A DNA stretch of 63,978 nt, counting the filler, from Stramenopiles sp. TOSAG23-6 (taxonomy: Eukaryota): the NCBI GenBank assembly GCA_900128565.1. It is 4 parts of 4 records of this genome, joined end to end, with 100 filler letters (N's around TTAATTAATTAA, not from the genome) between each part and the next. Parts side by side here need not be neighbours in the genome. Positions count along the whole stretch, not along the records: positions 1 to 17,174 come from LT636082.1; positions 17,275 to 34,383 come from LT636083.1; positions 34,484 to 51,492 come from LT636084.1; 1 more part is not named here. The stretch is one strand, 5' to 3'. This document shows positions 3,373 through 51,492 of this stretch, piece after piece (position 1 is the first letter of the stretch; each line of letters starts with the position of its first letter). The translations under genes and the position numbers were made by a program. The notes beneath the pieces were generated by a model. It had not been told where the DNA came from, did no database searches, and saw nothing but the letters and a program-made list of their open reading frames with translations.

Positions 3373-4304
3373 TCAACACTCTCCGCAATCAACAATGAGA
3401 ACTTCATGTATTTTGGAAAAATATTTAAAAAAAAATTGTTAGGTACAAAATTTCGTATGAAAACCAAAAAAAAAAATAANTTNGAANTTCGAAATTGAAA
3501 ACGTACATGCTCTGTCCCTCCACTTCTACTTCCCACAGCTTCGATAGCTTTAACAACACTATACCCCTTGGTTACTTGACCAAATACCTGTGTTGATCAA
3601 AAATATATAAAATTGGACATTTGTTACGTACAAATTTTGGTACAAAAAAAAAAAAAAATTGAAAATTCCATAAAGAAAAAAAAAAAATCTTAGGTACAAA
3701 ATTTCGTATGAAAAAAATAAATTGAAAATTCCATAAAGAAAAAATACAGTATGTTTTCCATCAAGGTGCTGAGTCGCTTTTGTACATAAAAAAAATTGGC
3801 TTCCGTTTGTGTTCCTACCTGCATTTGCCATACTCAATATACCAGGACCAGTATGACGTAAATCAAAATTTTCATCATCAAACTTATTACCCTGTCGTGT
3901 AAAACATTTGTATGTAAAAATCAAATTTGTTAGGTACAAAACTTCATACGAAAAAAAAAATGAAATTCATGATGAAAACGTACATAGATACTTCGCCCAC
4001 CTGTCCCATTGCGATTCGTAAAATCACCACCTTGGCACATAAAATTAGGGATTACTCTATGAAAAGGCGACCCCTTGTAACCAAAACCCTTTTCACCGGT
4101 GCATAGAGCACGAAAATTTTCACTAGTCTTGGGGACAACATCAGGACGAAGTTCCATTTCAATCCGTCCGACGTCTTTCCCACCAATAGACATATCAAAA
4201 AATACTCTGGAAGAAGTCTTTGGTTCACCGAGTGGGAATGAATAACTTTCATCATCAGCAGGATTTGGAGTTGGTATTTCTCCTGAACTGAACACGCCCC
4301 CCAT
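3373..4304 (-). CDS. Cyclophilin peptidyl-prolyl isomerase, 192 aa, 4 exons (4304-3984, 3891-3748, 3587-3507, 3405-3373)
   Basis: [44 protein letters not shown] and C-terminal [20 protein letters not shown]-terminal MGGVFS fits a myristoylation motif. Confidence 0.95.
3406..3506 (-). other. Family intron with non-canonical GT-AT ends
   Basis: cat|GTACG...CCAAAATACAT|gaa gives the conserved V-x-I-x-D-C-G end; the next AG causes a frameshift. Confidence 0.85.
3588..3747 (-). other. Family intron (GT-AG) with an internally duplicated core
   Basis: Two copies of TCTTTATGGAATTTTCAATTT...TTTGTACSTAA; removal joins GKHT to VFGQV. Confidence 0.9.
3892..3983 (-). other. Family intron with GT-AG ends
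   Basis: tat|GTACG...TTTTGTACCTAAC...ACACGACAG|ggt joins GGRSIY to GNKFDDENF. Confidence 0.93.
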
Positions 4305-4563
4305 TTGTCTTTAAATTTCCTGGTGAAAACTTAGTGTGTAACAACAATGTGTTTTTTAGTCGAAGTCAACTTTTTTGGCCAAGTTTTTTGCGTGTCAATT
4401 TTTCGTTTTGTCAATTTGCAATTTATTAAATTTGAAATTTTGAATCGGTCAAAAAAGAAAAAAAAAAAATTTTTTTTTTGATGTTTCCAAAAATAATGTT
4501 TCAAAAGAGAGCAGCGTTTCCAAATATTTAGTAAAGCGATCGTTATTATTTAGTCTTCCATTC

Positions 4564-5277
4564 ATGCTTCTTGAAACTTTGGATTCTAATGGCACTTATA
4601 TCAAGGGATTATTTTTCTTTTATTTTTGGGTGAAGTATTATACGTCTATTCTCAGCCTTTTGAAGACGCTAGATTACGTTTGGCCTTTTCAACGCATTTC
4701 ACGTAATTGTGTTTCCGCAACTCACTGTATTGGTGTTGTTTTAATCATTAAATTATGGGGAAGGTCTGCTACGTATAATACCTTGGTACCATTTTCAGTG
4801 TCTTATTTTCTATGGGATATAGCATGTAGTTTTTATTGGGGTAAGAAACAACTTAAAAAGGATGTACCATATATTTGGCATCACTTTGTCGCCGTATGGA
4901 TGCTCGTCACTATGGCACGAGGTAGAAATATAAATGCCGGACTCTCGATATTATGGATTGGGGAACTATCAAATATACCTGGTTATATCGTATATCACTT
5001 AATACATACAAATTCGGACGGGTCGAATAATGACATAGTTAAACTATCTAGTCTCCTCCAATTGATAGTCTACGGATATTTTCGATGTTTTGTACTTACT
5101 AAAAATGTTCCCCTAATTTATGAAGAGGTAGAGGATGATATGCCTCTCGGTCCAGCTCTTGTAAGTGTTTGGCTAATGAGTCAAATATGGTTTATATTAC
5201 TTTTAAAGAAACAATTGGTGAAACAAAAGCCAACCCTTGATAATTCTACAGTAAACAAAACTCATAAAATTGAATAA
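4564..5277 (+). CDS. TLC (TRAM/LAG1/CLN8) domain membrane protein
   Basis: YFLWD, WHH, GELSNIP and YFR motifs with multiple hydrophobic segments. Confidence 0.75.
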   Translation: MLLETLDSNGTYIKGLFFFYFWVKYYTSILSLLKTLDYVWPFQRISRNCVSATHCIGVVLIIKLWGRSATYNTLVPFSVSYFLWDIACSFYWGKKQLKKDVPYIWHHFVAVWMLVTMARGRNINAGLSILWIGELSNIPGYIVYHLIHTNSDGSNNDIVKLSSLLQLIVYGYFRCFVLTKNVPLIYEEVEDDMPLGPALVSVWLMSQIWFILLLKKQLVKQKPTLDNSTVNKTHKIE

Positions 5278-5400
5278 AATAATTTTATAAAGTCGACATA
5301 ATATCATATTTCAAAAATAATTTCAACTAGAAAATAATGCGAAAATAATATAGCTATCGATACAATGTTATATTTTCATCTGCGATGTATCCTACTATAC

Positions 5401-9417: not shown

Positions 9418-9687
9418 TTTGCTGTAGTAATAATACTGTAGCAAAATAGACTTACAAAGAGATTCAGTTAGTAAAGAGGGTCTCAGTTTATGATCCTCTT
9501 GAGTTCCTCCCGAACGGCTAACTGTTCCTGAATTGAACTGGCTCAATAAAATGGCAATAAATATATGTACAAACCTGTCGCTCTAACTTGAAAAAAAAAA
9601 ATGAACAAGTCGAACTGAATACTTTCTGTTTATTTATCATATCACACACAGCTGCTACTTACTGTAGTTAGTCGTAGAGACCTAACA

Positions 9688-10305
9688 ATGTCATCTTTCT
9701 TATCATTTATTGATGAGCTTGACTGCGAAGCCGAGCAGCTAACTCTTGGGAAAATTAGTCATGTTGAGTGTTCACCGATGCCAGCTGTGGCGCTAGCTAA
9801 AATAGAAGGTCAAAAGGTGACACAAGAAGAGATTGTTGCTGCGAGTAACAAACGTGCAGAGCAGCGTCAATTACTTCTCGAAATTTTTGATCAACATCTA
9901 CGAGTGTACGCAGACCATAATGAAGCTACGAGTGAAGTTCCTTCATCTGCTGACTACTTTAATGTTGCGCGTGAATGGTGTCGTGAACGTGATCTTTCTG
10001 TATTAGTTATTGATGGTTCTCCAAAGGAGAAATTGGAAAAGTTTTTCCAGCTTTTAGAAGACATGGGAATGGATGATGTTGAAGAACTAGCCGAAGATAG
10101 AGATACTTTAGAGTTGCTTTGTAGTTCATTAGATCGAATGAAGATGTATTCTTCTGTGCCGATGTCGGCATGGGATGCATCGAGGCCTTTGCATTTTGAC
10201 ATGGCAGACTGGGTAACATTTAAAAAGTTATTTAAGATTGGAATTGCCAAAAATGGTGACTTTTATGATAGTACAAATTATGACCAAAATCTTCCTGAAA
10301 ACTAA
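9688..10305 (+). CDS. Hypothetical protein
   Basis: 205-aa ATG-initiated ORF with globular composition. Confidence 0.65.
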   Translation: MSSFLSFIDELDCEAEQLTLGKISHVECSPMPAVALAKIEGQKVTQEEIVAASNKRAEQRQLLLEIFDQHLRVYADHNEATSEVPSSADYFNVAREWCRERDLSVLVIDGSPKEKLEKFFQLLEDMGMDDVEELAEDRDTLELLCSSLDRMKMYSSVPMSAWDASRPLHFDMADWVTFKKLFKIGIAKNGDFYDSTNYDQNLPEN

Positions 10306-10468
10306 CAGACCAGAAATTTCTAAATATAAATTACCATATAAGTCAAATGTACATTGCACACATATAATAATAAATGAATTATTTTACTTTCTATAGTTTT
10401 ATAGTTTTTAAAGTTTAGAGAATTTATATATATTCGAATTGTTTTAAAGATGACATTATTATATAAAT

Positions 10469-13400
10469 TTATATATATTCGAAATCTTTTAAAGATGACA
10501 TTATTATATAAAAAAACCAAAGGCCAATGAAGAAAATAGCAGTGATATTACGCCATTTTTTAGGCCCTCCGAGAACTGCGCCCAAATATTTTCTCCTTAG
10601 CATTAGAGTTCCTATACATAGAAGTGCACAAATTGTATATATTGAAACTGAAAAGGACAGATTACCTGCAGGAACAACGAAACCTCCTGTTTGATAAAAT
10701 CCTTGTTCTTTCAAACTTTCAATAACAGAGGCATCTAATTTATTAACATATGCATACCACGCATCAGTAGGCCCTTCACTTGACCAATACAATGCAGCTA
10801 TTAGCCATGGAAGACCAAGACCAAGAAAAACATTCACTGAATTAGACCCTGTTACGTTTCCTAAAGATGCATCAGCATCTGCATCCTGTATAGCTGCAGT
10901 CATGGAAGCAAAAGTATCTGGAAGTGATGTTCCAAGTGCAACAAAGGTAATAGCCGTGACGGCATCAGGCATTCCCACTACACATCCAAGCATTGAGGCA
11001 AGATCTCCAATCAATGCAGTCACTACTCCAATCATAATCAAACTAGACACGAATGCTGCCCATCCTTTGGCAAAATCAGTAGGAGGCAAAAATGCAAAAA
11101 GAATTTTCCAGGGCAATACAATAATATGCGTAATTTTATCACGGAGAGTGGCCTCTTCGTCTTCATCACCACCATTGACCAATAAAGCCTGTTTAAAACC
11201 ATCAATCCAATGTCCTGTTCCAAGTTGAATTCTGTCTTTATTTAGATGCATCATTGACATTATAGTATCCACAGTTTTCCTATTTTCCTCATCGGATATA
11301 ATGGTCACTGCACATGATTCCATCTCTACTCCACCCAGAGTAGTTTCTGCAAAACATGCATCATTCGTGGCATTTGACAACTCTACTCTAAATATCTCAT
11401 CTTTTTCATATGTATCATCATCAATTATATCAATTCTAATCGTTTTTTCCGTTTCGCCATCATCAAATACCAAAGTACCCTCAACGTGTGTGTAGTCTGA
11501 AGGTGCTATTGCCGTTTCATCAACTGTCTTATAGTCACATGTAACTCTTCCTGTACGACCTTCACGCCGTTTCACCACAATATCAATCATTTTCTGACTT
11601 TCACATACATGATAATGATTTTTTTCAAAAACGAAAACTCCCGGAAAGTCTACATTGATAATAGTAATCTCACATGATGCGATACCTAATTTGGTCGTTG
11701 TAGGAGTAGGGCTGTGTAATACCAATTGGAATGTTTCATCTAATTCATACTTTTGATCTTCAATTATTGTAATATCTATTTGCTTCTCACGTTCACCATC
11801 CATAAATGTCAATGAGCTATCAACAGGTGTAAAGTCTTCAATGCTTGTTGCTGTTCCTGCCACTGTCTTATAACCAATTGTTACAGAACCTTTACAAGTT
11901 CCATACCGAGCAACTTTAATACTTACAATTTTATCATCTTCAAAGACGGAAGTTTTTTTCTTTGTTAAAGTAATTAATTCTTCATCGTCAGAGAATTGCG
12001 ATTCTTCACGATCAACTTTACTTTCGCGTTTACTAGTACTACCAAACTTAAGAGCTCCATTTGCACCCTTCTCTGACATCAAACTCATATTTAATTTCCC
12101 AATTGTGCGACTTAAATGATTAGCAGTTATACCAATTTTGGCACCAGCTGTTAGACTTCGAGTTGCTTGGACTCGATAATATGCTCTTGATCGTTTTGTA
12201 CGTGAAAGTGCATTCATCGCTGCCTTGTGATGTAATTTGTCACTTTGGATAGTTGGATCTTCCTCTCGGATTTTCTTTAAAATTTCTGCCAGAACCCCTG
12301 GCTGTAATGTTTTGGCGAAATTTTCATTTGTACTCTCAATTTGTCTTGCTCGACCAAATTGAAATTTTCCAGGTATAACTTTTGACAGTTTATTTCCAAT
12401 GGGGGAACAATCAAATTTCCCTGTATCTTTGATGTAAGCAAACGTAACAAGCAATGGAAAAAATAATAGAGTCAACAATGCCTCAACATTTGTCACAATG
12501 TTGGGTGAAAATCCTTGCAATATTATAATGAGCCAGAGATACGCAAAAACAGAAAACATGGCGGTAATTCCAAATACGCCAATCTGTGATATTCGGCGCG
12601 TATCATCGCCAAGAGCAACTACACATAAACCGCTGATAACAAGCATATTGAATGCAGCTGAACCAACAATGGTTGAGGGCCCTAATTCACCCGAAGTCCA
12701 TTTCAAACCGTAGATTTCTAGCACAGAAAGCATTATCTCGGGTGCCGATGAACCTAGTGCCATTAATGTTAAGTTTGCAACAGTATCATTCCACATACGA
12801 ACGCGCACTTCTTCCCCATCGACTTGTACAAATTTGTACTCTGACGTTATTTCTTCAATCGATCCCATGAAAATATCAGACACAATTGCAACGCCAATAA
12901 AGAACCAGCCTAGGCCAATCATATAAATTACTATACGAAAACCTCTCGAACTTGAGTTTTCATCTTCACCAAAAATGGGTAAGAAATATCCCTTTTGACC
13001 TCCCGGATCACAGATTAATCTTTTGTATGAATGAACTGTATATGTTTTCTTATCTATATCTTGTCCCTCAACATATTCAAAAATATTGCAATGATCTTTA
13101 TCGTTTGTTAACGTGTTTGGACACGTATTTAAAGTGCATGTTTTAGTACCACAAGTCCCTTTCCGTTGTAAAGTACGCATGACAGGCTCCCTATTTTTTA
13201 GGACGTCAACGTAGCAACCATCAGTGATGGTATGTCCACCTTTGTCTGAATTATTTCCTGCAGGCCAAACGTAACCGCAACATTTTGGGTTTTTGTAGCA
13301 AGTGCTTTCTAAATTGGAACGGTCCGTGAAAACGCTTGCGTCAAATCCCCCCTGTGATGAAAGAATATTAAAAGTTTACATGGTTAGTTATATGAGATGG

Positions 13401-13668
13401 TTCACATATTGATTTAAAATATTTTCACTGTTATTCATTTGCATTGAGAACTTACTTTCCCTGTTTCAAAAGGCGAGGCTCTAAAGAGAGACGATTTAGT
13501 ACCATATGGCTCCTTGACCCAAAAGTTGTCGTTGCCAAGTTTGGTTAGTTTTCTGCCAAGGTATGTTGTTCTCCAATTGAAAGCATTATCTGACGCATTT
13601 ACCCAGTGCGTCAGAGAAAATGTAAAGAAGAAGAAATTCAGATATTTAAAATGTGAAATAGTTACCAT
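10469..13668 (-). CDS. NCX: Na+/Ca2+ exchanger (NCX/SLC8 type) with two Calx-beta domains; canonical intron at 13352-13455
   Basis: Alpha repeats ALGSSAPE and ALGTSLPD, GSAAFN, GSNSVN and Calx-beta motifs. A GTAAGT...ACTAAC...CAG intron links a signal-peptide exon in frame. Confidence 0.92.
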
Positions 13669-14403: not shown

Positions 14404-14459
14404 AAACAATTTAATAAATACATTTCAAAAACATTAAGACCTAGTATCTACTACAGATA

Positions 14460-16119
14460 TTAAATAATGTTAAATTTGAATGGATTGTTCAAATCTAAAT
14501 CACTCGATGTGACTGGAAATGGACATGCATCAGCTCCGGCTTCAGTTGCACAACACCCAAGACATGAGCAAATTTCCTTTGCATCAAATGATATTGTACT
14601 AGGGCTAATTGATTTAGTAAGTTCCAAACATAATTCTAATGGCGATTTAGATATGATTTCATCCTATATTTGTTTGGAATATAATAAAAAAAAATAATTT
14701 AGGAAATGAAATAATTTCAAAAATTTTTTTTTTTTTCTTTTTTTTTCAATATAATAAAACATACACCTTCTGGTGGTCTCAACATTGGTTGAAATGATTC
14801 TTCACGAGGTGTTAATCCATACAATGTGAGAATATATATACATATTTTTTTTTTTAGTAAAACAAAAATTTGTTAGGTACAAAAGTTTCTACGAAAAAAA
14901 AAACAAAAAAAAAATTGAAATTGTTAAACATATATATGCTTGATTGCATCCCATTTGAGTCGACTTTATTTTAAATTCGACGTTACCAGTCACTTGAGTT
15001 TGACAAATTCTACATTTTTCTGAGAGCAGTTCGCCATCATAAATTGTAAGAAAATATTTTCAAACATTTTACAATTTTTTATTAGGTACAAATTTTGGTA
15101 TAGAAAAAAATTTAGAAAAAAAATTGAAATTTGAAATTGAAAATACATTATGGTTAAAATCACAAAAAGGAATTGGAAACAATGGTTTTATACCATTTGT
15201 GTCATATTGACCCTCATCCACCCAATTTACTATAGTTTGGCTTTTTTTCATATCACAACAGCCGAGTGAATTTTTATCTGTACAAATTTTACCAATATAT
15301 TGTCGACAAAGTGCATGTATTTTGAAAAAAATATTTTTTTTTTTTTGGAAATTAGTCAAAAAAATTATTAGGTACAAAATTACGTACGAAAATATTTAAA
15401 AAAAAAATTGAAAAAAAAATAAAACGTACATGTTGATATTTTAATTCCAACATTTCGAGTAATCCACCACGAGATATCGATTGTTCCCAATTTGTGTTGA
15501 AAGTACAATTAAATGCCACTTGAGTACACATTGGATGACATATTAGATTTCCACATTCTGTTTCCATATCATCACTTCCCATGACTTGATTCCGAACAAA
15601 GAGAGATATATTGTGAAAAAATATTTTTTTTTGTAGAATTTGTTAGGTACAAAATTTCGTACGAAAAAAAAAATTGAAAAAAAATGAAAAAAAATGACAT
15701 GTACAGTCTCGGATGCTTGCAGTTTCATCACGTTGTTTGAAACTATCTACACACATATCCAATACTTTTTTGCATTTACCAGGTTTTTTTGCTTGAATTC
15801 CACCCATATATCCTTTGGTTATGTCTCTGAGAGATTCAAAGCGAAGTGGAACAGGTTTGTTCATAAGTTGTTTTGGTTCTATTTGTTTTTGAATTCTTGA
15901 CAAGACATCAAAATCTGTTGAAGTTGTCGAAATTCTTTGTTTGTTTTGTTGTATAGTCGGTGATTGTTCGTGATATGTAAATGGACTCATTGTCAGAAAA
16001 AGCTGCTTCATATTATTGAATGTAGGAAGTTTTCTGAATGATTTAACTAGAAAAATATGGAATGTAAGGAGTAATAATACGATTAGTATTACGCCCATCG
16101 ATCTTTGTCGTTGTTGCAT
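14460..16119 (-). CDS. Cys-rich predicted secreted protein, about 373 aa, 6 exons (16119-15705, 15605-15430, 15314-15147, 15038-14934, 14818-14765, 14663-14460)
   Basis: Signal-like N-terminus. Removing five family introns gives one continuous ORF with ICHPMC, LGCC, CRIC and ICSCLGCC motifs. Confidence 0.75.
14664..14764 (-). other. Degenerate family intron with GT-AG ends
   Basis: ggt|GTATGTTTT...TTCCTAAA...CAAATATAG|gat. Confidence 0.75.
14819..14933 (-). other. Family intron with apparent AT-AT ends
   Basis: tat|ATATGTTT...TTTTGTACCTAAC...CTCACATTGTAT|gga keeps the frame. Confidence 0.55.
15039..15146 (-). other. Family intron with GT-AT ends
   Basis: aat|GTATTTT...TTTGTACCTAAT...TTACAATTTAT|gat; the two nearest AGs lead to stop codons. 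Confidence 0.78.
15315..15429 (-). other. Family intron with GT-AT ends
   Basis: cat|GTACG...TTTTGTACCTAAT...CAAAATACAT|gca; the first three downstream AGs are out of frame. Confidence 0.82.
15606..15704 (-). other. Family intron, GT-AT (an in-frame AG 21 nt downstream is possible)
   Basis: act|GTACA...TTTCGTACGAAATTTTGTACCTAAC...CACAATATAT|ctc. Confidence 0.7.
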
Positions 16120-17274: not shown

Positions 17275-17339
17275 TTTTTTTTCATACGAAATTTCGTACC
17301 TAACGATTTTTTTTTGTAATTTTTTTTTTCACAATACAT
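17275..17339 (+). other. 3' part of a family intron ending in AT, at a contig start
   Basis: CATACGAAATTTCGTACCTAAC...CACAATACAT|gg cgg ttg (W-R-L-L-L-Y of the IP3R MIR region). Confidence 0.75.
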
Positions 17340-20300
17340 GGCGGTTGCTATTGTATAGAAAAAGTTCCAATAAAGCTTTAAGTAAGGTTGAGCGACCTTT
17401 ATTTATCGGATCTGTAATAAGACTTTACCATCCCCAATCCCAATGCTTTTTATCAATAGCTATCCCAAAAAATGAAAATAGATTCAAAAACTCTTCCAAA
17501 ATTCAAAATGAAAAATATTGTGTACTGTTAATGGGAAGTAGTCGAATTGAGGCCGACGACATCGTAGACTCAAATTTTCTTTGGATTATTGAACGCGAGG
17601 AATTTTACCATGGAGAAGCTGCAAAGTGGGAAATGTGCTTTCGATTTCGTCATTTAAATACTCATTTTTATTTAGCCCATGGTATTGAACCAGAGTCAGG
17701 TGGTATCTATGAAGAAGTTCGAAATAGTGTTTCTAGTAGAGGAAGCTGCCCTAGTGTTCTTCCTATTAGCTGTACAAGAAATCGACAATTGTCCCAAACA
17801 ACATTTCGTGCTAAAAGTTCAAAACAATCAAAACGAAAAAATGCTGTATGGTTACAAGATGGTGATGGTTTGTATTTACATGCAAAAGAAGGACAAAATA
17901 TAGAATCTTCACCAGAACCTTCAGATCTTGCAAAAATAGGTTGGCTGCGCCAAGGTGGAAAATTATCTAATTCTTTTTCCGAATATGATAAAGTGTATAC
18001 TATTGACTGTGCAAATTTTCAAGCTGATGATGCTCTTGTAATTAATCAAATGTCGTCTTCGTATGTCACAGAAGTAGAAATGAGTTTATCAATAGCGGGG
18101 AGTATTCATAAATTACTCACATGTATGTTTTGTTTTTCTAGATTGTTTTTTTTTGTATCAAATTTCGAACCTAACAAAACTAAATTGAAAATATTTTTTC
18201 AAAATACATGTGCGGAAAAAGAACGAATTGGAATTATTCATAGTCCTAAAAAGTATTCCAAAGTTAAAAGAGATGTTAATCAAGATAACGAAGCGTTGTT
18301 TACAACAGAACAATTCTCTCAACTTGCAGCAACTATTGTTCAAATGGCTCGTTTTATTAAAGACTCAGATGAAATTACAAATGGGAAAAGTATGAACTCA
18401 AATTTTTCTGAAAGTGTAAAAGAGATGAACGATATATACAGAACAGTTTTCCTGTCTCGGGATCGACAAAAGTTATTATGTGAACATCGAATTATTGAAT
18501 ACATATATAGGCTTATACGAGCACTGGCTGGTATTGGATGTAGCCGATTAAGAAACACCAAGAAAATGTCCTCAGAGGATACTAAAATAAAATCAAAACC
18601 GGTAGAACTAGAATCAAAAGTAAAATCAAACATCAGTGAAAACCCTTCAAATAATAAGCCTCGAGGGAAATGGGCATCTCTTCGAACGGGAGTTCGTACT
18701 TCTCCAAAAAAATCTTCGGAATCTTTAACAACGTCTCTGCATGTCACTCGTTTTATTGGGAAGCTGATCTCAAAAATAGAGCGGTCTCAACGCTTGAAAT
18801 TCAAATCGAACAATAACCAACAAATTCAAAATGTGTGTAAAATGTTGTACCAAATGATACACATGCTTATATCTGGAAACGAAGCTACGAGATTATTTGT
18901 ATTACCCTATCTTGAAGAAATGATAGATCATATTGACTTAGATATTGGGGCAGCTTCCTGTCTTACAGAGCTAATGGATGGAAACAAAAGAGTACTAGAA
19001 GAAAACATTACTCATTACCATCTTAAGCTGTCGGTAAATTTAATCGCAAGAAATGGATTGAAACCGGAGTATCTCAAGTTACTTATTGGGCTGTGCAATT
19101 GTCGTGGAGAAGCCATGGATAAAAACCAGAACTTTCTTTGTTCCTATCTCTTAGAAAACAAACCTGAGCTTCTAATACGTACAAAGATAGTACCAAGTGA
19201 TAATAAGAAACCAATTGATCTCCCAACATCTGATGTTTCACTATTTTCGCATGATTCAAAGAGTTCACAATCATATCTCGAGAGAAAGCGGAGAATATCA
19301 GTATTGAAAGAAAATAAAAATATTCTTGGAACAAAGATGCTTGATGACGGAGTATCCAATGTTCATGTTAGTTGGAATATAGAAAATTGGAATTTAGAAA
19401 GTAATATGGAAGCATCAAACTTAACACCACAGAAATTGTTTCAAAAAGAATGGGTCCCAATTATAGAATTTGCTAAAACTGGGTTTGAGTTTGATCGGAT
19501 TAATAATTCATCACAAGATACTTCAAAGTTATTGGTATTAGATTCAAAAGTTGAATCTCCAGAAGACAAGCTATTAGTGCAGCGAATGCAAGTATACTCT
19601 TATTACCGTTCACAGATTGAATTATTAGCATCTTTATGTCTTGAGCGTAATTACCTTGGAATTCGAACATTGGAGAAGGAATTTACATATGAGCATGTTC
19701 TGAGTGGGATGATAAACAGAGAATTGCCAATTTCACTTAGAGCTGCATATACAAAGTTAATGTGTAATCTGTGGGTAGATCGAGCTCCTCAGAGAGCAAT
19801 GCAAATCCCAAAGTTTGTTCGGTTACTTTATACTCAAAAGGATGAGTTCAATTTAAATCGATGTAATAGTAGTCTAGCGTATACAATTGGGGACATGGGT
19901 GGTACAAAAAAAGAAGTACACCAAAGGCTTCAACGTGATTCATTATCTAAATCTCGATTTGCATTACTACAAGCAGCGTTGAACAAATATTTTCGGGATT
20001 TATCGACCAATCAGAATAATAATGAAGAATCCAAGAATGTCGACAAGCTTTCAGATATGTTAAGTTTGACTCTTGAATGTTCTAGTATTGCAAAAAGATT
20101 GACAGAATTTGGATTTTACAGTTCCGTTTCCCAAATACAATCAATTGCTGGATCCATCATGGGTATTGTGGATGGTACTCGTGATCATGTTGAAGAGTTC
20201 CCGCAAATCCATCATATTACAAAAAGACAAGATGTACTTCCCGATGTAAAATCAGATCAAATAGTACCTGTTGTCCGTCGTCGTCGAACTGTAAGTATGG

Positions 20301-28664: not shown

Positions 28665-29997
28665 ATGAGTGCGATTGATTTATCGCAGACACAGGAGAAC
28701 GAGCTCCTTTACGTTGGATTCAACCAGGACTATGGTTGTTTTGCATGTGGTACTAGTACAGGATTTCGAATATATAACTGCAATCCGTTTAAGGAGACAT
28801 TTCGACGTGATTTTACAAGTGGCGGAATTGGCATTGTAGAAATGCTTTTTCGATGTAATATACTTGCACTTGTGGGTGGTGGTAAAGTTCCCCGATATCC
28901 CAAGAATAAAGTGATGATATGGGATGACCACCAAAACCGTCCTATAGGCGAACTTAGTTTCCGAAGCGAAGTCAAAGCTGTAAAGCTTCGACGAGATCGT
29001 GTCGTAGTTGTCCTTGAAAATAAGATTTACGTTTATAACTTTGCAGACCTGAAGTTGGTCGACCACATTGAAACTATTAAAAACACTCGAGGCTTAGTAG
29101 CTCTCTGTCCCAACTCTACCAATATGGTACTTGCATGCCCAGGTCTTATCCGCGGGCATGTACGTGTTGAACTTTACGATACTCGAAGGAGTACATTTAT
29201 TCCAGCACATGAAACCGATCTTGCTGCTATGGCTTTGAATCTCGCTGGTACTAGACTAGCGACTGCTTCAGAAAAGGGGACATTGATTCGTATTTTTGAT
29301 ACTCAAAGTGGTCAATTGCAGCAAGAGCTACGGCGTGGGGCCGACAAGGCTGATATATACAGTTTAAGTTTTGATGCATACTGTAAACATCTTGCATGTT
29401 CGAGTGACAAAGGTACTGTTCATATTTTTAAGTTGAATTGTAGTTCCGCGAGTGATGCTGTTGTTGTCAATGGAAGTGAAGCTAATGAAGTAGTAGCCGA
29501 TGGAAATGGAGAACATGTAGGAGGCACAGGTACCGGTACAGCTGCGGGCGAGACTGGTNGCCATGTACGTTTTCAAAATTGAATTTCAATTTTTTTCAAT
29601 AGAAAATTTTGTACCTAACAAAAAAAATCCAAAATATTTAAAATATTTTCATACAATACATCGAAGGGATGATGTTTCAACAAATAACGGACTGTCTGGA
29701 GCACGAGGAAATTCTCTTCGCTACGAGAAAAAAACATCGTCCAATCCAGTATCTGGTCTTCGGTTTATGAGAGGGCTATTACCAAAATATTTTAGTAGCG
29801 AATGGAGTTTTGCACAATTTAGAGTGCCACACGCTCGCACAATCTGTGCATTTGGTTCTGATGAAGGTACACTAGTGGCAGTTTCTGCTGATGGTACCTT
29901 CCGCAAAACAAGATTTTTGCAAGGTGGAAATTGTGAAAAAGTCGCATACAGTAAGTTTGTTNAAGTTGCTAAGGATGACGACGAGTGGATTTCTTGA
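28665..29997 (+). CDS. ATG18: PROPPIN ATG18/WIPI3-like autophagy protein (exons 28665-29564 and 29662-29997)
   Basis: [38 protein letters not shown] and [14 protein letters not shown] motifs. Confidence 0.93.
29565..29661 (+). other. Family intron with GT-AT ends
   Basis: cat|GTACG...AATTTTGTACCTAAC...ATACAATACAT|cga; the nearest AG gives CAT GGA TGA (stop). Confidence 0.82.
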
Positions 29998-34294: not shown

Positions 34295-34383
34295 GTATGT
34301 TTTATTTTTTTTTATTTCGAATTTATTTTTTTTCGTACGAAATTTTGTACCTAACGATTTTTTTTTGAAATATTTTTTCACAA
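34295..34383 (+). other. Family intron truncated by contig end
   Basis: tat|GTATGTTTT...TTTCGTACGAAATTTTGTACCTAACG...GAAATATTTTTTCACAA. Confidence 0.85.
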
Positions 34384-44187: not shown

Positions 44188-45033
44188 TTACGATGTTTTC
44201 TTTTCTACTTTTTCCTTGTAGAGGCATACACCGTAATTTTGAACCACTTTGTCCGCATAATATACCGCATTAAAACAATGTAGAAATGCAGCAAAAGACC
44301 TGTATTGTACGTACATTAGAAGAAAAGAATATATATGTAAGTAACACTGAAAAAGTAATTGATAGTTTAGAAGAAAAGAATAAATATGTAAAACGTACAT
44401 GAGGAATAATTCAATGAATGTTGCTTTCAGATTACCACTCTTAAAATTGATAAAGATAATATAACAACAAAGTTGCATTCCTGGTAGACGCATTGTCAAA
44501 TTAAGCATTCGATTTACTCTTTTTTCAGTCAACCTTTTTATCAATCCATACTTCACACATGAAAGTAGCACATAGTCAATACCTCCAGGTAAGCCACACA
44601 TGAAGAAATTCACAATACTAACAACCTTGCCAAAAGGAAGTGAAACACCAAATATGGGTACTATGATACCGCTAACAAAATGGTGAACAAGGTCTTCGAA
44701 GCTAAGACCTTTTCCACCGAGGAAACGAAGAGTTAATAAGGTATGGTAGCAATGGAAAGCCCCAATTGCTACTGTTGTTGATAAACTTGATATTGAATAA
44801 AGAGGAGAGAATGTATCAAGCGGATTAAGCATCGTTTCCCAACATTCATTCGTACAAAGTATCATAATATATACGTTGAAACAAGAGTGTAACACAAAGT
44901 ATTGAGCTCCTGTTTTCCGAAAAATTTGCTTTACAATAAATATGTCAACTATACCTGTCAAAACAAATATAACACAGAAGAATATGAGCAAATCATTTAC
45001 ATCTATTCCATTTAAAAAAGCATACTGAAGCAT
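44188..45033 (-). CDS. TLC-domain-like membrane protein with an intron at 44300-44398
   Basis: YFVLH, FHCYH, DLVHH, FFMCGLPGGIDY and MRLPG motifs. Confidence 0.75.
   Translation of the reverse strand: MLQYAFLNGIDVNDLLIFFCVIFVLTGIVDIFIVKQIFRKTGAQYFVLHSCFNVYIMILCTNECWETMLNPLDTFSPLYSISSLSTTVAIGAFHCYHTLLTLRFLGGKGLSFEDLVHHFVSGIIVPIFGVSLPFGKVVSIVNFFMCGLPGGIDYVLLSCVKYGLIKRLTEKRVNRMLNLTMRLPGMQLCCYIIFINFKSGNLKATFIELFLMYVLHIYSFLLNYQLLFQCYLHIYSFLLMYVQYRSFAAFLHCFNAVYYADKVVQNYGVCLYKEKVEKKTS
44300..44398 (-). other. Degenerate family intron (GT-AG), 99 nt and in frame
   Basis: cat|GTACGTTTT...CAATACAG|g with an internal ~24-nt duplication. Confidence 0.8.
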
Positions 45034-45375
45034 TTTAATTAATCTTGGAAAACCAAATTCCCCCAAATTTTAATCTCTCTTTTCAGAATTTCAATGATTT
45101 NAGCAGCTACGAGCAGGTATTTATGCGGTACTCGTTAGACGCAAGAATTATAATAATAATATAGCAACGAACAAACTATTTTGTACTTCCACGAACAGGT
45201 AGGTGAAGTATTACTATCATATGATTTGCTGTGTACGTGGATTTCTGCCGTTAAAATGGTGTTACCCGGTAACGAAAAAGTCAGCGTGAAGCTCCCGATA
45301 AACCCATTTGTTGTTTGTTTTGTTCGGTGTTTCGTCGTCTGTATTCCTCGTCATAAACACAAAATTTAAAGTAAA

Positions 45376-45768
45376 ATGGTGCGCATGGGTGTTCTCGCGG
45401 ATTCGCTCCGTACAATTTCTAACGCTGAAAAGCGTGGTAAACGTCAAGTTATCGTCAGACCAGTCTCCAAGGTTTTGATTAAATTCCTTCAGTGCATGCA
45501 GAAGGCTGACTACATTGGTGAGTTCGAGATCGTCGATGACCACCGTGCTGGTAAGGTCGTCATTGAGCTCACTGGTCGCATCAACAAATGTGGTGTTGTA
45601 TCCCCACGCTTCGATGTCAAAGGTAAAGATATGGAAAAATGGATTGCTAACCTCCTTCCTTCTCGTCTTTTTGGACACATTGTCCTCACAACTTCTTACG
45701 GAATCATGGATCACGAAGAAGCAAAGCGCAAGAAGACTGGTGGAAAGCTTCTTGGCTTCTTTTACTAA
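45376..45768 (+). CDS. RPS15A: 40S ribosomal protein S15a (uS8)
   Basis: [11 protein letters not shown]...[15 protein letters not shown]...[10 protein letters not shown]. Confidence 0.98.
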
Positions 45769-46120: not shown

Positions 46121-47431
46121 TTAGGGTTTGGGTTTATATTGTAGTTGCTTTTTAGACATATTTTTGAGAGGTGCAAATGTAAGTCTATGAATAGGACAAG
46201 CTCCATGTTTGAAACATTGGGCTTTGTGAAAAGCAGTTGGGTATCCTTTGTTTTTTTCAAATTCGTAGTGGGGCCATTTCACGTGATATTCTTTCATTAA
46301 TTTATCACGAGTGACTTTTGCTATAATTGATGCTGCAGCAATAGAGAAAACTTTCGAATCCCCCTTTATAACATTTTCTACTTGACAATGTTCAACAAAC
46401 TGACCTCGATAAGTCACTTTAGTTGGTTCTTCTTCAGTATTGTTCAATTTAATGGAAGAAACCTTTGCTTTCGTTTTCTTTTTATTTACTTTTTTAGTCT
46501 TTGTAGCTTTCAATTTTAATTTTTTTTTCCTGTAATATTCATGTGTTGGTTCAGGAATATCTCTAGGATCTCTAGGGCCATCTACAAGAACGTAATCTAC
46601 AGGATTATTATTGTCACTGTCATTAATAGATTGAACTGAAAGTCTCATTGCTTCCATCGATGCCTGTAAAATATTAATTTCATCTATGCGATTATGAGGT
46701 ATAATCGATACACCATATCGAATACGTGGATCAGTAGTAAGTTGGTTAAATAATTTTATTCTCATTTCTTCGCTCATTTTTTTTGAGTCAGTGACACCTT
46801 CGAAGAAAATACCAGGTGGTACTACACAAGCAGCAGCAACAACTGGGCCTGCGAGAGGTCCTCTACCTAATATATAGTATAATAACAAATATCTATATAA
46901 ATTAGTACAACAAAAAGATACAAAAAAACTTTAAAACACATAAACAAATAAGCAAAACTTACCCGCTTCATCGGTCCCCGCAATACATTTGTATCCTTGG
47001 GCAGTTAATTCATCTTCTCTGGATTTTGTCAGACCAATCACAGGTTTTTTTCCTTTTTTACTCCCAACTAAATCTTTCTTTGTAACTGTTTTTTTCTCTG
47101 AAGCTTTACGGGGCTTTCTCGTTCGTTTTGAACTAGCTGCTGTTGCTGTTTTTTTCTCTGAAGCTTTACGGGGCTTTCTCGTTCGTTTTGAAGTAGTTAG
47201 TTTTTTTGTGTTTTTTTTTCTTTTTACATTTCGTCCGTTCTGGACAGGCACGTTTTCCAAGTCACTGACATTTTCTTCATTTTCAGTTTTCTCACTTTCC
47301 CGTGACTGAGAACTCAAAAGTGCTTCAGAGGCGCGTCGTGCCCTCTTATGCAAACGTTCTCTGGATGGTGGTGGTGATACTACTCTATCGTCAAAGCTCA
47401 CGCGCCTTTTCTGCGAACGCGTTACAACCAT
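46121..47431 (-). CDS. rnhB: Bacterial-type ribonuclease HII with a basic N-terminal extension; canonical intron at 46867-46962
   Basis: Spliced GTDEAG|RGPLAGPVVAAA, DSKK, INILQAS, KGD, IAAASIIAKVTRD, NKGYPT and HRLTF. Confidence 0.92.
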
Positions 47432-48708: not shown

Positions 48709-48790
48709 ATATAAACAAAAACTAACTTTTATTTATTTAATACACTAGAGGATCTTTATTTATTTAATGCACTAGAGGATCTTTATTTAT

Positions 48791-50212
48791 TTAATGCACT
48801 AGAGGATCTTTACCATGTTTTTTAATTCTAGCTGCTCGAGCAATTTCAAATCTATTATCCCAATTTTTACAATTATAGGAGGATACGCACGCATTTCCTT
48901 CAAGACAGCTACAAGATGAATTATCTAACATATTACTAATGTCATGATTATCTAATTGTGTGTGTGTATCTATAGTAACACTGCGTATAACCTGATTTCG
49001 TGATACACCATCGATATATTTTAAATGGCTTATTTGTTTTCTTAATTTTTGCACTATTTCTTTATATTCGTTTTTCTCATTGCAAGGATTACCCCGAAGA
49101 TCAAGTTCTGTTAACCATTTTAATGATTCCAATAAGGAAATATTTTCTGTATCTTCAACACAATTATTGGCTAAACATAATTTGCATAGCTGTGTTGGCC
49201 AAATAAGTGAATTTAATGGTAGGTTTGACAGTGAACAATTTTCTGCACGAAATTCACGAAGTTGTGGGGCACTTTGTAAGAATGTTAATGGATGTTTTTT
49301 ATGTATTTGTATATTTTCTAAAGATGTTGTATGATTTCGTGTAGTCTCTATGTAATTAGATAAAGAATTTCCACTGATATCTAAGACAAGTAACTTTGGA
49401 AATCCACTTAGTTCTGGAATTTGTTTAAGTGTTCCATTGGTTAATCGAAGAATACGAAGCCAGCATGGCGAGGCAACAGAACCCCATGAAGCAACAGCAT
49501 CTTCAGATATGTCTGAGTCAGAACATGTCAAGGCAACAATTTTATTTGATAAAATATCATTCCAAATGATATTTTTAAGTGGCGGCGTGACTGGTGATAA
49601 CACTAAATGTTCAGCAAATATAGTTGATGTTGCTACATTATCTATAATATTCATTTTTGAGTTCTCTAACTCAGTCCTTGTTTTATCTACGACGAGTAAA
49701 TTTGAATCTAATACAGAAAATGTTTTACCAGGTATTATAATACACTTTTTACCTGAAGTTGATTTCTTTTTGGTACTTTTCAAACGTCGGTTTCGTTGTT
49801 TTCTTTTAGTATTCAGAGTAGTTTTGGATGTTGTTTTGCGTTTGCTCTTTTTATTTTGCTTGATAGAAATATGCTTGCAACACTCTTCGACACACCTAGA
49901 CGATAATACGACCTCAAGGCACAACTTTCCAGATTCAATTCTCACCCATTCATCATTCGGAGACATCTGACCTCCAAAAGGGGACTTGAATTTTCGCCAA
50001 GGATCTGATAATAGTGCAGAAATTTTCTTCTTTAATTTCAAATATTCGTTCCTGACTGCTGAAAATGCAGCCTCTTCACCTTTTGCTTTCAACACACGAG
50101 TGTATATTTCTTGTAGGTTTCTTCTAGCTTTATTCCTTTCTTCTCCATTCAAAAGTAATCTTCCGTCACACTCTGACTGTAGTTTCACTTCTATTGATGC
50201 AGCTGAGCCCAT
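48791..50212 (-). CDS. Leucine-rich repeat protein with an N-myristoylation motif and Cys-rich tail
   Basis: MGSAAS; LLVLDISGNSL, LTELDLRGNP with an LRR cap; SCSCLEGNAC. Confidence 0.8.
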   Translation of the reverse strand: MGSAASIEVKLQSECDGRLLLNGEERNKARRNLQEIYTRVLKAKGEEAAFSAVRNEYLKLKKKISALLSDPWRKFKSPFGGQMSPNDEWVRIESGKLCLEVVLSSRCVEECCKHISIKQNKKSKRKTTSKTTLNTKRKQRNRRLKSTKKKSTSGKKCIIIPGKTFSVLDSNLLVVDKTRTELENSKMNIIDNVATSTIFAEHLVLSPVTPPLKNIIWNDILSNKIVALTCSDSDISEDAVASWGSVASPCWLRILRLTNGTLKQIPELSGFPKLLVLDISGNSLSNYIETTRNHTTSLENIQIHKKHPLTFLQSAPQLREFRAENCSLSNLPLNSLIWPTQLCKLCLANNCVEDTENISLLESLKWLTELDLRGNPCNEKNEYKEIVQKLRKQISHLKYIDGVSRNQVIRSVTIDTHTQLDNHDISNMLDNSSCSCLEGNACVSSYNCKNWDNRFEIARAARIKKHGKDPLVH

Positions 50213-50462
50213 TGATGAGTAGGGAAGTATTTTATACTAAACTCATTAGAATATGCTTTTAATTTAATCAGCAAAGTAATCTTATGTAAGCCCTGGAGAC
50301 TGTGTTGGATCCTTGACCAACCTTGACCAACCTGTGTCGGTCTAGATCATGTGAAACTGTCATAACCCTAACCCTAAGACATTCGCGAGCATGCATCAAA
50401 TCTGAAATTTTCTTCCATCGAACAACAATACTAGATACCTTTCTTCTCCATATTTAGTAAAC

Positions 50463-51402
50463 ATGGAAAATGATATTCGTTCACCTTGGGCAGTTGTGCT
50501 AGAAATATGTGGATGTGAACCCAATGAGAAAATGGTAACAATAGAACAGTTATTTCATGCAATGCCCCATTTTGTCGGTCGTGTTTTAGATTCATCAGAA
50601 AAAGCACAAGTGCAAGCTGCTTTTGGAGCACAATCTACTTCTCACAAAATATCTTCGGACGATTTTTCAAAAGTAATGGGAATATTTCTTGATCAGCAGC
50701 CGGACAATGAGACAGATGAAGAAAATGAATACTCAGAAGAAAATGGAAGTGATACATCTATTTTTAGTCATTCAAATAATGATAAAGATAGTACAACACC
50801 ACCATCTAACTTAAACGATTCTAATCAGATAGAAATCTTAGAAGAGTCTTTACGTGTAGCAAACACATATACAAAAAAGGAATCTCGTCGCGCAGCTCAT
50901 TTACAGCATAAACTCGATGCAGCAGAACATCATCATCATATGCTGGAAGATGAAATAAAAACATTGAAGCAAAGATTAGTTACGTCAGACCGAAAACTGG
51001 GGTTAGAGAAGAAGCAAAAAGATCAAGTTTGTGACGATATGAAAGAACAAGCAGAAGCATTTACTAAAATACAACAACAACTAGAAGAAGCTAAAAAAAC
51101 AAATCAATCATTATCTACACAATTGGAAAAAATACAAAATACACCAAATGATTCAATCACAGATGAAATAATATCTACGATACAAAAAACAGAACAACAA
51201 AAAAAGGCTGATTTGCTATTTGTACAAAAACTACAGTCAGATTTGAATAATGCTCTACAAGAATTAGTTATCTTGCGCAAAGAAAAATTAGATCTATCAT
51301 TTAAAGTTGATACATACAGTGTAGAGTTAGATGCAACAAAGAGTGATTTGAAAGACACAAAAAATATTCTCGATTCTGTACAGAAACAAAACCGAGCATT
51401 AT
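50463..51402 (+). CDS. EF-hand-like plus coiled-coil protein, 3' truncated at an intron and contig end
   Basis: Degenerate EF-hand-like N-terminus followed by a heptad-rich region. Confidence 0.65.
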
Positions 51403-51492
51403 GTATGTTTTATTTTTTTTCAAATTTAATTTTTTTTGTACGAAATTTTGTACCTAACGATTTTTTTTTTGAAATATTTTTCCAAAATACAT
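51403..51492 (+). other. Family intron (GT...AT) ending exactly at a contig end
   Basis: tat|GTATGTTTT...GTACGAAATTTTGTACCTAACG...TTCCAAAATACAT. Confidence 0.82.

What the first reader, a model, noticed from the sequence alone, without database searches (positions are those of the whole stretch)
3406..51492. Transposition model: an element with GTA...TAC ends inserts at AT, and the duplicated AT becomes the 3' splice site
Seen: 11 of 16 copies with a visible donor are preceded by an exonic AT, and many end TAC+AT. This gives AT|GTA....TAC AT, i.e. short inverted ends (ATGTA/TACAT, extendable to ATGTATTTT/AAAATACAT) flanked by a 2-bp direct repeat. Splicing GT...AT removes the element plus one repeat copy and restores the coding sequence exactly. 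Copies such as cat|GTACG...CAATACAG (44300-44398) look like later T-to-G changes to a canonical acceptor, and several AG copies are more decayed. Established: MITE-derived introners co-opt target-site duplications as splice sites. The AT-target version is my inference, and no transposase is present in this window.
Basis: inference. Interest (0 to 1): 0.82.

Follow-up and report, generated by a model that had tools for sequence, protein, structure and literature searches.

The report
Mobile intron family ending in AT
A tiny uncultured marine flagellate carries a very abundant family of near-identical 90-115-base introns that mostly end in AT instead of the near-universal AG, and probably spread as mobile DNA landing at AT sites.

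Summary
The window is four contigs of an AT-rich, gene-dense eukaryote. The closest protein is 98% identical to a gene model whose id I read as a MAST-3 stramenopile single-cell assembly. It holds 17 copies of one intron family, 15 complete, all in sense orientation inside genes. Of 16 visible 3' ends, 10 are AT and 6 are AG. Cutting from GT to AT keeps the reading frame in 8 of 9 testable AT-type copies. In the cyclophilin gene it restores a conserved C-terminus that no in-frame AG can give. Summed contig depth over the element is about 1000-2000 times the flanking depth in two DNA data sets, and six contig ends stop in or beside copies, so this is a very abundant introner-like repeat and not just shared splice signals. 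The transposition model is only partly supported. The invariant AT cannot separate a target-site duplication from insertion next to AT. The inverted ends are short, no transposase lies in the window, and no full antisense or intergenic copy was seen. The tendency of AG copies to be more decayed is not significant. No RNA evidence for splicing could be obtained. I found no publication describing this family.

The parts
130..270 (+). Copy O1. AT before the donor, 3' end AG (TATAG). Decayed, and probably a 5'-UTR intron.
   Evidence: nhmmer E 0.02. Sequence. The frame cannot be decided.
349..445 (+). Copy O2. AG before the donor GTTTGTTTT, 3' end CAATACAT. 97 nt, phase 1.
   Evidence: nhmmer E 0.0098. 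Frame-consistent: 43 codons open upstream and 97 downstream.
1071..1178 (-). Copy A. CG before the donor, 3' end TAG. 108 nt, phase 2, in a LIN37-like gene.
   Evidence: 51.6 bits.
3406..3506 (-). Copy B. AT|GTACGTTTT...AAATACAT, 101 nt, phase 0. It is the last intron of the cyclophilin gene.
   Evidence: The junction reads [13 protein letters not shown] and is colinear with the relative P0354 (..THEVIIAD..). In-frame AG acceptors exist only at +36 and +42, which by my reading of the sequence lie beyond the stop codon.
3588..3747 (-). Copy C. CT before the donor, 3' end CAG. 160 nt with an internal tandem duplication of about 66 nt. Cyclophilin gene.
   Evidence: two partial hits.
3892..3983 (-). 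Copy D. AT before the donor, 3' end CAG. 92 nt, at the conserved SIY|G site of cyclophilin.
   Evidence: Loose ends of other copies stop at 3985 and 3986.
14664..14764 (-). Intron P. GT before the donor GTATGTTTT, 3' end TAG. A decayed or doubtful family member.
   Evidence: Not found by nhmmer.
14819..14929 (-). Copy E. AT before GTTTAAC, 3' end TGTAT. The frame is not restored by the consensus boundaries.
15039..15146 (-). Copy F. AT|GTATTTTCA...CAATTTAT, 108 nt, phase 0.
15315..15429 (-). Copy G. AT|GTACGTTTT...AAATACAT, 115 nt, phase 0.
15606..15704 (-). Copy H. CT|GTACATGTC...CAATATAT, 99 nt, phase 1. An alternative donor 6 nt downstream does follow AT.
17275..17339 (+). Copy I, 3' part only because the contig starts inside it. 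It ends CAATACAT, at the 5' end of the IP3-receptor-like gene.
18123..18209 (+). Copy J. AT|GTATGTTTT...AAATACAT, 87 nt, phase 1, in the IP3-receptor-like gene.
   Evidence: Distant homologues lack the segment it would encode.
29565..29661 (+). Copy K. AT|GTACGTTTT...CAATACAT, 97 nt, phase 0, in the PROPPIN gene.
34295..34383 (+). Copy L, 5' part only because the contig ends inside it. AT before the donor, phase 1, in the Sec7/BIG-like gene.
44300..44398 (-). Copy N. AT|GTACGTTTT...CAATACAG, 99 nt, phase 2. The interior is decayed.
   Evidence: Not found by nhmmer.
51403..51492 (+). Copy M. AT|GTATGTTTT...AAATACAT, 90 nt, phase 1. The contig ends exactly at its last base.
62785..62820 (+). A 36-nt fragment resembling the element core. 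It is antisense to, and inside, the coding sequence of a minus-strand gene.
   Evidence: nhmmer E 6.5e-4. Context.
13352..13455 (-). Comparison: an ordinary, non-family intron (GTAAGT...AACTAAC...CACAG) in the Na/Ca-exchanger gene.
46867..46962 (-). Comparison: an ordinary, non-family intron (GTAAGT...TACTAAT...TTAG) in the RNase HII gene.

Best explanation
This is a non-autonomous, introner-type mobile element of about 90-115 bp in a marine stramenopile, probably of the MAST-3 group. It has multiplied to a very high copy number inside protein-coding genes.

Each copy brings its own strong 5' splice site (GTAYGTTTT), a branch-site-like box (TACCTAAC) 33-54 nt from its end, and a T-rich tract with no AG in it. 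The unit ends in ...TAC and is flanked on both sides by AT, usually within (C)AT|G.

The spliceosome most likely cuts at GT and after the downstream AT. This removes the element plus one AT and leaves the original codons.

The most economical origin is insertion at an AT target with duplication of that AT, so that the duplicated copy serves as a non-canonical 3' splice site. With time some copies change the last T to G and so acquire a canonical AG.

Status of each step:
- Shown here: the family, its abundance, the AT flanks, and frame restoration.
- Inferred: actual splicing at AT.
- Inferred more weakly: a DNA cut-and-paste mechanism with a 2-bp duplication.
For: Family and abundance:
- Copies are similar over their full length.
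- Summed contig depth over copies G and H is 79,804 against 49 for flanking sequence in X1. It is 17,518 against about 8 in the independent 2024 seawater run X2. The tool warns that this is not a calibrated copy number.
- Six contig ends lie in or beside copies.
- A further copy lies in contig L001.

AT flanks:
- 11 of 16 donors follow AT, P about 1e-7.
- The loose ends of other copies stop just after that AT.

GT-AT cutting:
- 8 of 9 testable AT-type copies keep the frame.
- B, G, K and O2 have lengths that are not multiples of 3, so they must be removed.
- At copy B the product ..[13 protein letters not shown] matches relatives residue for residue (P0354 has ..THEVIIAD..).
- With the family donor kept, an in-frame AG that introduces no stop exists only for B, H and O2 among the AT-type copies. 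H and O2 would lose 7 and 3 codons. At B the two such AGs lie, by my reading, beyond the stop codon, so the conserved C-terminus would be lost.
- Read 2 bases upstream, only 5 of 9 copies would be AT-AC. Read as GT-AT, all 9 fit.
- The two confirmed ordinary introns in the window are GTAAGT...AG, so the AT end is tied to the family.

Duplication and DNA origin:
- The termini are symmetrical, AT-GTA...TAC-AT, with an extension (ATGTATGTTTT against the reverse complement of the 3' end, 9 of 11 with one indel).
- Only one AT can belong to the inserted DNA. A duplication therefore explains the flank and the symmetry together.
- GT-AT splicing is chemically possible: rare conserved GT-AT introns exist in human and mouse (PMC1557818, passages).
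- Transposon-derived introns ending in AT are reported in Fritillaria (review PMC11282704, passages).
Against: - No spliced RNA was seen. The RNA-library contigs that lie on this stretch run unspliced through family copy F. They also run unspliced through an ordinary GT-AG intron (13352-13455), so they are uninformative.
- Copy E breaks the frame.
- Copy A is well preserved but follows CG. O2 follows AG and H follows CT. A strict AT target needs later exon changes to explain these.
- There is no locus-specific duplicated base beyond the invariant AT.
- No transposase is found in any of the 38 ORF or exon translations scanned against Pfam.
- All 17 copies are in sense orientation inside genes. 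Only one 36-nt antisense fragment was found.
- RNA folds of 8 copies are not clearly more stable than shuffles (z from +0.4 to -2.1).
- The public gene model P0122 reads a different junction at B.
Confidence: 0.55

Rival explanations
1. Same family and same GT-AT splicing, but no target-site duplication. The mobile unit is GTA...TACAT and carries its own AT. It enters after a pre-existing AT, for example by reverse splicing of the excised intron into transcripts followed by reverse transcription and recombination, or by some other insertion with an (C)AT|G site preference.
For: - All 17 copies are in sense orientation and inside genes. I estimate about 14% of contig 1 to be intergenic, and none of that holds a full copy.
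- Copies occur in all three phases and cluster in the first 1.5 kb or so of coding sequences.
- The flanks (C)AT|G look like a site preference: G at +1 in 12 of 18 copies.
- A and O2 lack the upstream AT.
- Gozashti et al. 2022 say that such invariant flanks cannot prove a duplication.
Against: - The symmetry AT-GTA...TAC-AT and the extended inverted ends would then be coincidence.
- An antisense core fragment lies inside a coding exon, which reverse splicing cannot make.
- Gozashti et al. 2022 conclude that most introner families propagate by DNA transposition.
Confidence: 0.25
2. The introns are AT-AC introns read two bases upstream (AT|GTA...TAC|AT read as |ATGTA...TAC|). That would make them minor-spliceosome or U2-type AT-AC introns.
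For: For copies that have AT on both sides the two registers give the same mRNA. 5 of the 9 complete AT-type copies (B, G, J, K, M) would read AT...AC.
Against: - In that register E, F, H and O2 would be AT-GT, AT-TT, CT-AT and AG-AC, whereas all 9 are GT-AT in the other register.
- AG-ending relatives (N against K, A against E) place the splice point after the last base.
- None of the 16 donors has C at +5 and +6, which the minor-type 5' box requires as I recall it.
- The branch-like box lies 33-54 nt from the end. As I recall, that is further than in minor introns.
Confidence: 0.07
3. The element is not mobile. These are ordinary introns that look alike only because this organism has very strict splice signals and AT-rich filler.
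For: Earlier scan notes (e1-563371, e1-562441) record this error for Ostreococcus. The interior of the copies is low-complexity T- and A-rich sequence.
Against: - The similarity covers the whole length, including the non-signal palindrome TTTCGTACGAAA.
- Depth is about 1000-2000 times the flanks.
- The assembly breaks at copies.
- Ordinary introns of the same genome have different signals: GTAAGT, ACTAAC or TACTAAT, and AG.
Confidence: 0.03
4. The elements are removed from DNA, like the TA-bounded eliminated sequences of ciliates, and not from RNA.
For: Short inverted ends flanked by a 2-bp direct repeat. One repeat copy is left after removal.
Against: - The copies carry a full set of spliceosomal signals.
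- DNA contigs of X1 and X2 contain the copies, and no precise DNA deletion joint is among the joints shown (157 joints were not shown).
Confidence: 0.02

Closest known systems
Introner elements that take a splice site from their target-site duplication (Micromonas, Aureococcus, Symbiodinium, Chrysochromulina; Gozashti et al. 2022, PMC9860276, passages read; review PMC11282704, passages read)
   Same: Short, non-autonomous, high-copy introns inside genes. The element carries one splice site and a short flanking repeat overlaps the other. Splicing restores the mRNA length.
   Different: - The flanking repeat here is 2 bp and reads AT, so the 3' splice site would be AT and not AG.
- The passages read report 3-9 bp duplications and discuss only GY/AG core splice-site nucleotides within the duplications.
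- Here the duplication itself is unproven.
Non-canonical introner elements of Amoebophrya (Farhat et al. 2021, PMC7789003, passages read)
   Same: Repeated introns with non-GT-AG ends, direct repeats of a few bases across the exon/intron boundaries, inverted repeats, and no transposase inside.
   Different: - Amoebophrya shows no dominant dinucleotide pair and has 8-20-nt inverted repeats that form hairpins.
- Here all copies keep GT and a conventional branch box. The 3' end is only AT or AG. The terminal pairing is weak.
MITE-derived non-canonical introns of Fritillaria borealis (Henriet et al. 2019, seen only as described in review PMC11282704; abstract listing of PMC13326754)
   Same: Recently gained, transposon-derived introns whose 3' end can be AT and which a modified major spliceosome removes.
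   Different: - Fritillaria introns mostly begin with AG (AG-AC, AG-AT) and are diverse.
- Here the 5' end is a classical GT site and one family dominates.
- The organism is a stramenopile protist and not a tunicate.
Rare GT-AT introns of human and mouse (Sheth et al. 2006, PMC1557818, passages read)
   Same: The same terminal dinucleotides. This shows that GT-AT can be spliced by either spliceosome.
   Different: In mammals these are a handful of single introns (7 U12-type, plus one conserved U2-type in DGCR2). Here it is the commonest state of a repeat family: 10 of 16 3' ends in 64 kb.

Membership tests
Introner elements (repeated, recently spread spliceosomal introns) | Many copies with sequence similarity over the whole intron within one genome | tested here: met
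   15 copies at nhmmer E <= 0.02 in 64 kb. Alignment. Depth is about 1000-2000 times the flanks.
Introner elements (repeated, recently spread spliceosomal introns) | Copies interrupt coding sequence, and their removal restores the reading frame | tested here: met
   13 of 14 testable copies keep the frame: 8 of 9 AT-type and 5 of 5 AG-type. Homology check at copy B.
Introner elements (repeated, recently spread spliceosomal introns) | Removal from RNA shown by spliced reads | tested here: inconclusive
   The RNA-library contigs are unspliced at an ordinary intron too. No near-identical transcript-derived cyclophilin was found.
Introner elements (repeated, recently spread spliceosomal introns) | Positions not shared with relatives, that is recent gain | not testable with these tools
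   No DNA of relatives could be fetched. The genome and metagenome scans gave one true extra copy only.
Cut-and-paste DNA transposon / MITE | Terminal inverted repeats | tested here: inconclusive
   ATGTA/TACAT is perfect. The extension matches 9 of 11 with one indel, read. My rough chance estimate is 1e-3 to 4e-3. There is only one family, so no replication is possible.
Cut-and-paste DNA transposon / MITE | Target-site duplication with locus-specific matching bases | tested here: inconclusive
   AT is found on both sides in 7 of 9 complete AT-type copies, but it is the same in all copies. Position -3 matches within a copy in 8 of 16 against about 6 expected (read).
Cut-and-paste DNA transposon / MITE | An autonomous partner that encodes a transposase | tested here: not met
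   No transposase family appears in the 38 ORF or exon translations of the window scanned against Pfam. The rest of the genome is not held.
Cut-and-paste DNA transposon / MITE | Copies in both orientations and outside genes | tested here: not met
   0 of 17 copies. Only one 36-nt antisense fragment was found.
U12-type (minor) introns, including AT-AC | The conserved minor-type 5' splice-site box | tested here: not met
   The 16 donors read GTACGTTTT (6), GTATGTTTT (4), and GTATTTTTT, GTATTTTCA, GTTTAACAA, GTACATGTC, GTATTAATG and GTTTGTTTT (one each). None has the C-C that I recall at +5 and +6. The box itself is recalled and was not produced by a tool.
U12-type (minor) introns, including AT-AC | Branch box close to the 3' end | tested here: not met
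   The branch-like box lies 33-54 nt from the end in AT-type copies. The short distance that defines the family is recalled.
U12-type (minor) introns, including AT-AC | Minor snRNAs present in the genome | not testable with these tools
   There is no Rfam match in the window, and the whole genome is not held.
Amoebophrya-type or Euglena-type non-conventional introns | Ends brought together by a stable terminal stem, with variable terminal dinucleotides | tested here: not met
   The ends pair in the best fold of 2 of 8 copies only, with z-scores from +0.4 to -2.1. The termini are uniformly GT with AT or AG.

The most novel reading that the evidence does not exclude
In MAST-3 stramenopiles the major spliceosome routinely accepts AT as a 3' splice site. 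This tolerance allowed an AT-targeting cut-and-paste element, whose 2-bp duplication supplies that AT, to create thousands of GT-AT introns that now make up most of the genome's introns. Canonical AG ends then arise secondarily by T-to-G change. That would let one watch non-canonical introns being converted into canonical ones.
Probability: 0.4. Interest if true: 0.85.

Novelty: new variant of a known kind. Interest (0 to 1): 0.7.

Why it matters
Introners are the best current explanation for bursts of intron gain. The families described in the passages I read recruit or carry canonical GY-AG sites.

A dominant family with GT-AT ends would show that a mobile element can impose a non-canonical splice site on a whole genome. 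It would identify a free-living protist whose spliceosome tolerates that site. It would also give a natural series, AT ends and AG ends in otherwise identical termini, for studying how new introns are "domesticated".

There is a practical side. Gene finders that accept only GT-AG will mis-model most genes of these ecologically important, uncultured grazers. The public model of the cyclophilin gene here already lacks 17 residues and reads a different junction.

Tried and rejected
- RNA proof. I laid two metatranscriptome runs (X5, X6) on 3488-17174. Depth outside the repeat is 0-6. No splice joint is among the joints shown, and 157 joints were not shown. The contigs also run through an ordinary intron unspliced. 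No conclusion on splicing can be drawn.

- More copies from elsewhere. Pattern scans of metagenome, genome and viral contig collections gave one true copy (L001), one chance match in a Bacteroidales genome (L002), and nothing in the viral set. The whole genome is not held, so genome-wide logos, a search for long autonomous copies, and presence/absence tests could not be run.

- Transcript-derived proteins for the cyclophilin junctions. No near-identical spliced product was found, only relatives at 75% identity or less plus the public model P0122.

- A homology check of junction J with distant IP3-receptor homologues. The homologues lack the intron-encoded 29 residues, but the region is too variable to fix the boundary.

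- A terminal hairpin. It is weak.

- AG copies being older. Fisher's test on decayed against preserved copies gives P = 0.036, but with an ascertainment bias. Leave-one-out scores give P = 0.13.

- Association between an AT 3' end and an AT upstream flank: 7 of 9 against 3 of 6, P = 0.33.

- Rfam and tRNA scans of the window found nothing.

- Earlier scan notes held nothing on this genome.

- Literature. Searches for 'introner' with 'MAST-3' gave 0 papers. A search on introners, marine stramenopiles and single-cell listed nothing relevant among the 10 papers shown of 82. A search on GT-AT, non-canonical introns and protist listed no such family among the 15 shown of 30. The MAST genome paper PMC5778133 mentions introns only in its methods. 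The Incisomonas paper PMC12614181 does not mention them. The two introner surveys do not name MAST or stramenopiles in their main text.

Full report
**What the window is.** The 63,978 bases are four contigs of about 17 kb each. They are joined by N44-TTAATTAATTAA-N44 linkers at 17175-17274, 34384-34483 and 51493-51592. GC content is 30-38%.

The long open frames encode eukaryotic proteins:
- a B9 ciliary protein
- a Calx-beta Na/Ca exchanger
- an IP3/ryanodine-receptor-like channel
- a HECT ligase
- a PROPPIN
- a Sec7/BIG N-terminus
- Dim1
- RNase HII
- cyclophilin

The Dim1 frame is 98% identical to a EukProt gene model whose id begins GSMAST32. I read that prefix as a MAST-3 stramenopile single-cell assembly. 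This is my reading of an id and not a tool result. The best DNA holder is a small 2015 run, and three 2024 seawater metagenomes also hold much of the stretch.

**The observation.** A repeat of about 90-115 nt recurs inside genes, always on the coding strand. In order it contains:
- GTAYGTTTT
- a T-run
- the 12-nt palindrome TTTCGTACGAAA
- TTGTACCTAAC
- a second T-run
- TTTTTCAMAATACA followed by T or G

These features are seen. A profile built from eleven copies finds 15 copies in the window at E <= 0.02. Two further introns, N and P, share only the 5' end, and N also the 3' end. They are doubtful or decayed members.

AT precedes 10-11% of all GT in the window, so P is about 4e-8 to 8e-8. Of 16 visible 3' ends, 10 are AT (7 of them TACAT) and 6 are AG.

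**It is a mobile family and not a shared signal set.**
- The similarity covers the whole length, including parts with no splicing role.
- The two confirmed ordinary introns of the same contigs look different: GTAAGT, then ACTAAC or TACTAAT, then AG.
- Summed contig depth in the bin that holds copies G and H is 79,804 against 49 in flanking sequence in run X1. It is 17,518 against about 8 in the independent run X2. The tool warns that this is not a copy number, but it fits thousands of copies.
- Six contig ends lie in or beside copies, and one ends exactly at ...ACAT. This is what an assembler does at a high-copy repeat.
- An unrelated metagenome contig (L001) holds one more copy with AT before the donor and an AT 3' end.
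- When other copies are laid on copy D, the best-supported break points lie just after the AT that precedes GT: 56 and 22 contigs in X2. This serves as a rough genome-wide check of the AT flank.

**Is AT really the 3' splice site?** I could not obtain RNA proof. The metatranscriptome contigs on this stretch are thin. They run unspliced through an ordinary GT-AG intron (records 23 and 29 over 13352-13455) as well as through family copy F (record 24), so they behave like DNA or pre-mRNA. The case therefore rests on coding logic.
- B, G, K and O2 have lengths that are not multiples of three, so they must be removed.
- With the boundaries fixed by the family alignment (GT at the start, the last T at the end), the long frames on both sides join in 8 of 9 testable AT-type copies, where chance gives one in three. 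Copy E is the exception.
- At copy B, the last intron of cyclophilin, the product reads ..[15 protein letters not shown]. Relatives read ..STTHEVIIADSG and ..GKTAHKVTVDACG without any gap.
- At B the only in-frame AG acceptors are at +36 and +42, which by my reading lie beyond the stop codon. They would delete the conserved last strand.
- No AG lies between the branch-like box and the end in any of the 14 copies with a recognisable branch-like box.
- The first AG downstream is out of frame in B, E, F, G, K and I. It gives a stop in J. It is usable only in H and O2, at the cost of 7 and 3 codons.

**Which register?** Where AT lies on both sides, a cut two bases upstream (AT...AC) gives the same mRNA. 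Across the nine complete AT-type copies that register gives AT-AC only five times, and otherwise AT-GT, AT-TT, CT-AT and AG-AC. The GT-AT register fits all nine. Pairs with identical termini differ only in the last base: CAATACAT in K against CAATACAG in N, and CACATTGTAT in E against CACATTGTAG in A. This places the cut after that base. The donors lack the minor-spliceosome box as I recall it, and the branch-like box is 33-54 nt from the end. I therefore reject the minor-intron reading.

**How the copies got there.** Removal of GT..AT restores the frame, so the inserted DNA contains exactly one AT. There are two possibilities:
- The element is GTA...TAC and duplicates an AT target.
- The element is GTA...TACAT and enters after an existing AT.

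Both ATs are the same in every copy. Position -3 matches the 3' end within a copy no more than chance would give (8 of 16 against about 6 expected). Gozashti et al. 2022 describe exactly this ambiguity for AG (passages).

In favour of a duplication:
- The termini are symmetrical (AT-GTA...TAC-AT) and extend to a 9-of-11 inverted match. This would otherwise be coincidence, and my rough estimate of that chance is 1e-3 to 4e-3.
- A 36-nt antisense fragment of the core lies inside a coding exon (E 6.5e-4). RNA-level insertion could not make it.

Against a duplication, or neutral:
- No transposase lies in the window.
- All 17 copies are sense and genic.
- Copy A is well preserved yet follows CG. 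O2 follows AG yet ends in AT.
- The terminal stem is weak in RNA folds.

The flanks suggest a wider motif, (C)AT|G, at both junctions. G is the first exon base in 12 of 18 copies (P 7e-6) and C is at -3 in 7 of 17.

The claim that AG copies are older is a trend only. Four of 6 AG copies against 1 of 10 AT copies are strongly decayed (P = 0.036, but with ascertainment bias). Leave-one-out scores give P = 0.13.

**Comparison with what is known.**
- Introners that borrow a splice site from their duplication are established.
- Non-canonical, repeat-derived introns with short direct repeats across the boundaries are known in Amoebophrya.
- MITE-derived introns ending in AT are reported in Fritillaria.
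- Isolated GT-AT introns exist in mammals.

What differs here is the combination: one dominant family, a classical GT donor and branch box, a 3' end that is AT in most copies and AG in the rest, and a heterotrophic stramenopile host. I found no paper on it.

**Verdict.** The reading as an introner family with GT-AT boundaries is well supported by sequence logic but lacks RNA proof. The AT duplication and the DNA-transposon mechanism are the most economical account but are unproven. This is a new variant of a known kind, of real interest to people who work on intron gain and splice-site evolution.

Noticed in passing
window 17175-17274, 34384-34483, 51493-51592: The window is not one molecule. 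It is four contigs joined by N-runs around TTAATTAATTAA. Distances and synteny across these points mean nothing.
   Followed up: yes
window 1-45, 17275, 34383, 34484, 51492, 51593: Six of the eight contig ends lie in or right beside a copy of the intron element. Contig 3 ends exactly at ...ACAT, and contigs 3 and 4 both begin with CAT. The repeat limits assembly of this genome.
   Followed up: partly
window 2050, 28424, 31932, 46122, 47555, 50366, 58008, 61424, 62644: The telomere-like motif CCCTAACCCTA has 10 matches (at most 1 mismatch) against 0.24 expected. Most lie in short spacers next to gene starts. It may be a promoter motif.
   Followed up: partly
window 14819-14929 (-): Copy E is the only AT-type copy whose consensus boundaries break the frame by one base. 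Its donor lies in an (AT)n run. This could be an assembly slip, an odd splice site or a dead intron.
   Followed up: partly
window 62785-62820: A 36-nt antisense fragment of the element core lies inside the coding sequence (..NLLGTKFGM..) of a minus-strand SH3-domain gene.
   Followed up: partly
window 3375-4310 (-) and protein P0122: The public gene model of this cyclophilin lacks 17 conserved residues and reads [11 protein letters not shown] at the last junction. The window and its relatives give HEV... there. GT-AG-only annotation seems to mis-model genes that carry this family.
   Followed up: partly
whole window: All copies lie within roughly the first 1.5 kb of their coding sequences. 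Several genes hold 3-5 copies: cyclophilin has 3 and the gene at 14463-16185 has 5. About 30 kb of long ORFs have none.
   Followed up: no
window 3588-3747 (-): Copy C contains a tandem duplication of about 66 nt of its own interior, so it has two branch-like boxes.
   Followed up: no
window 59666-60209, 2303-2848, 48728-48812: Three tandem repeats: 36-nt coding repeats (11 units), 69-nt BspA-type leucine-rich repeats, and three 27-nt repeats just downstream of the Dim1 gene.
   Followed up: no
window 45370-45768 (+): By my reading of the translated start ([12 protein letters not shown]...), this plus-strand frame encodes a ribosomal protein of the S15a/uS8 type. The overlapping minus-strand ORF of 193 aa is therefore probably spurious.
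   Followed up: no
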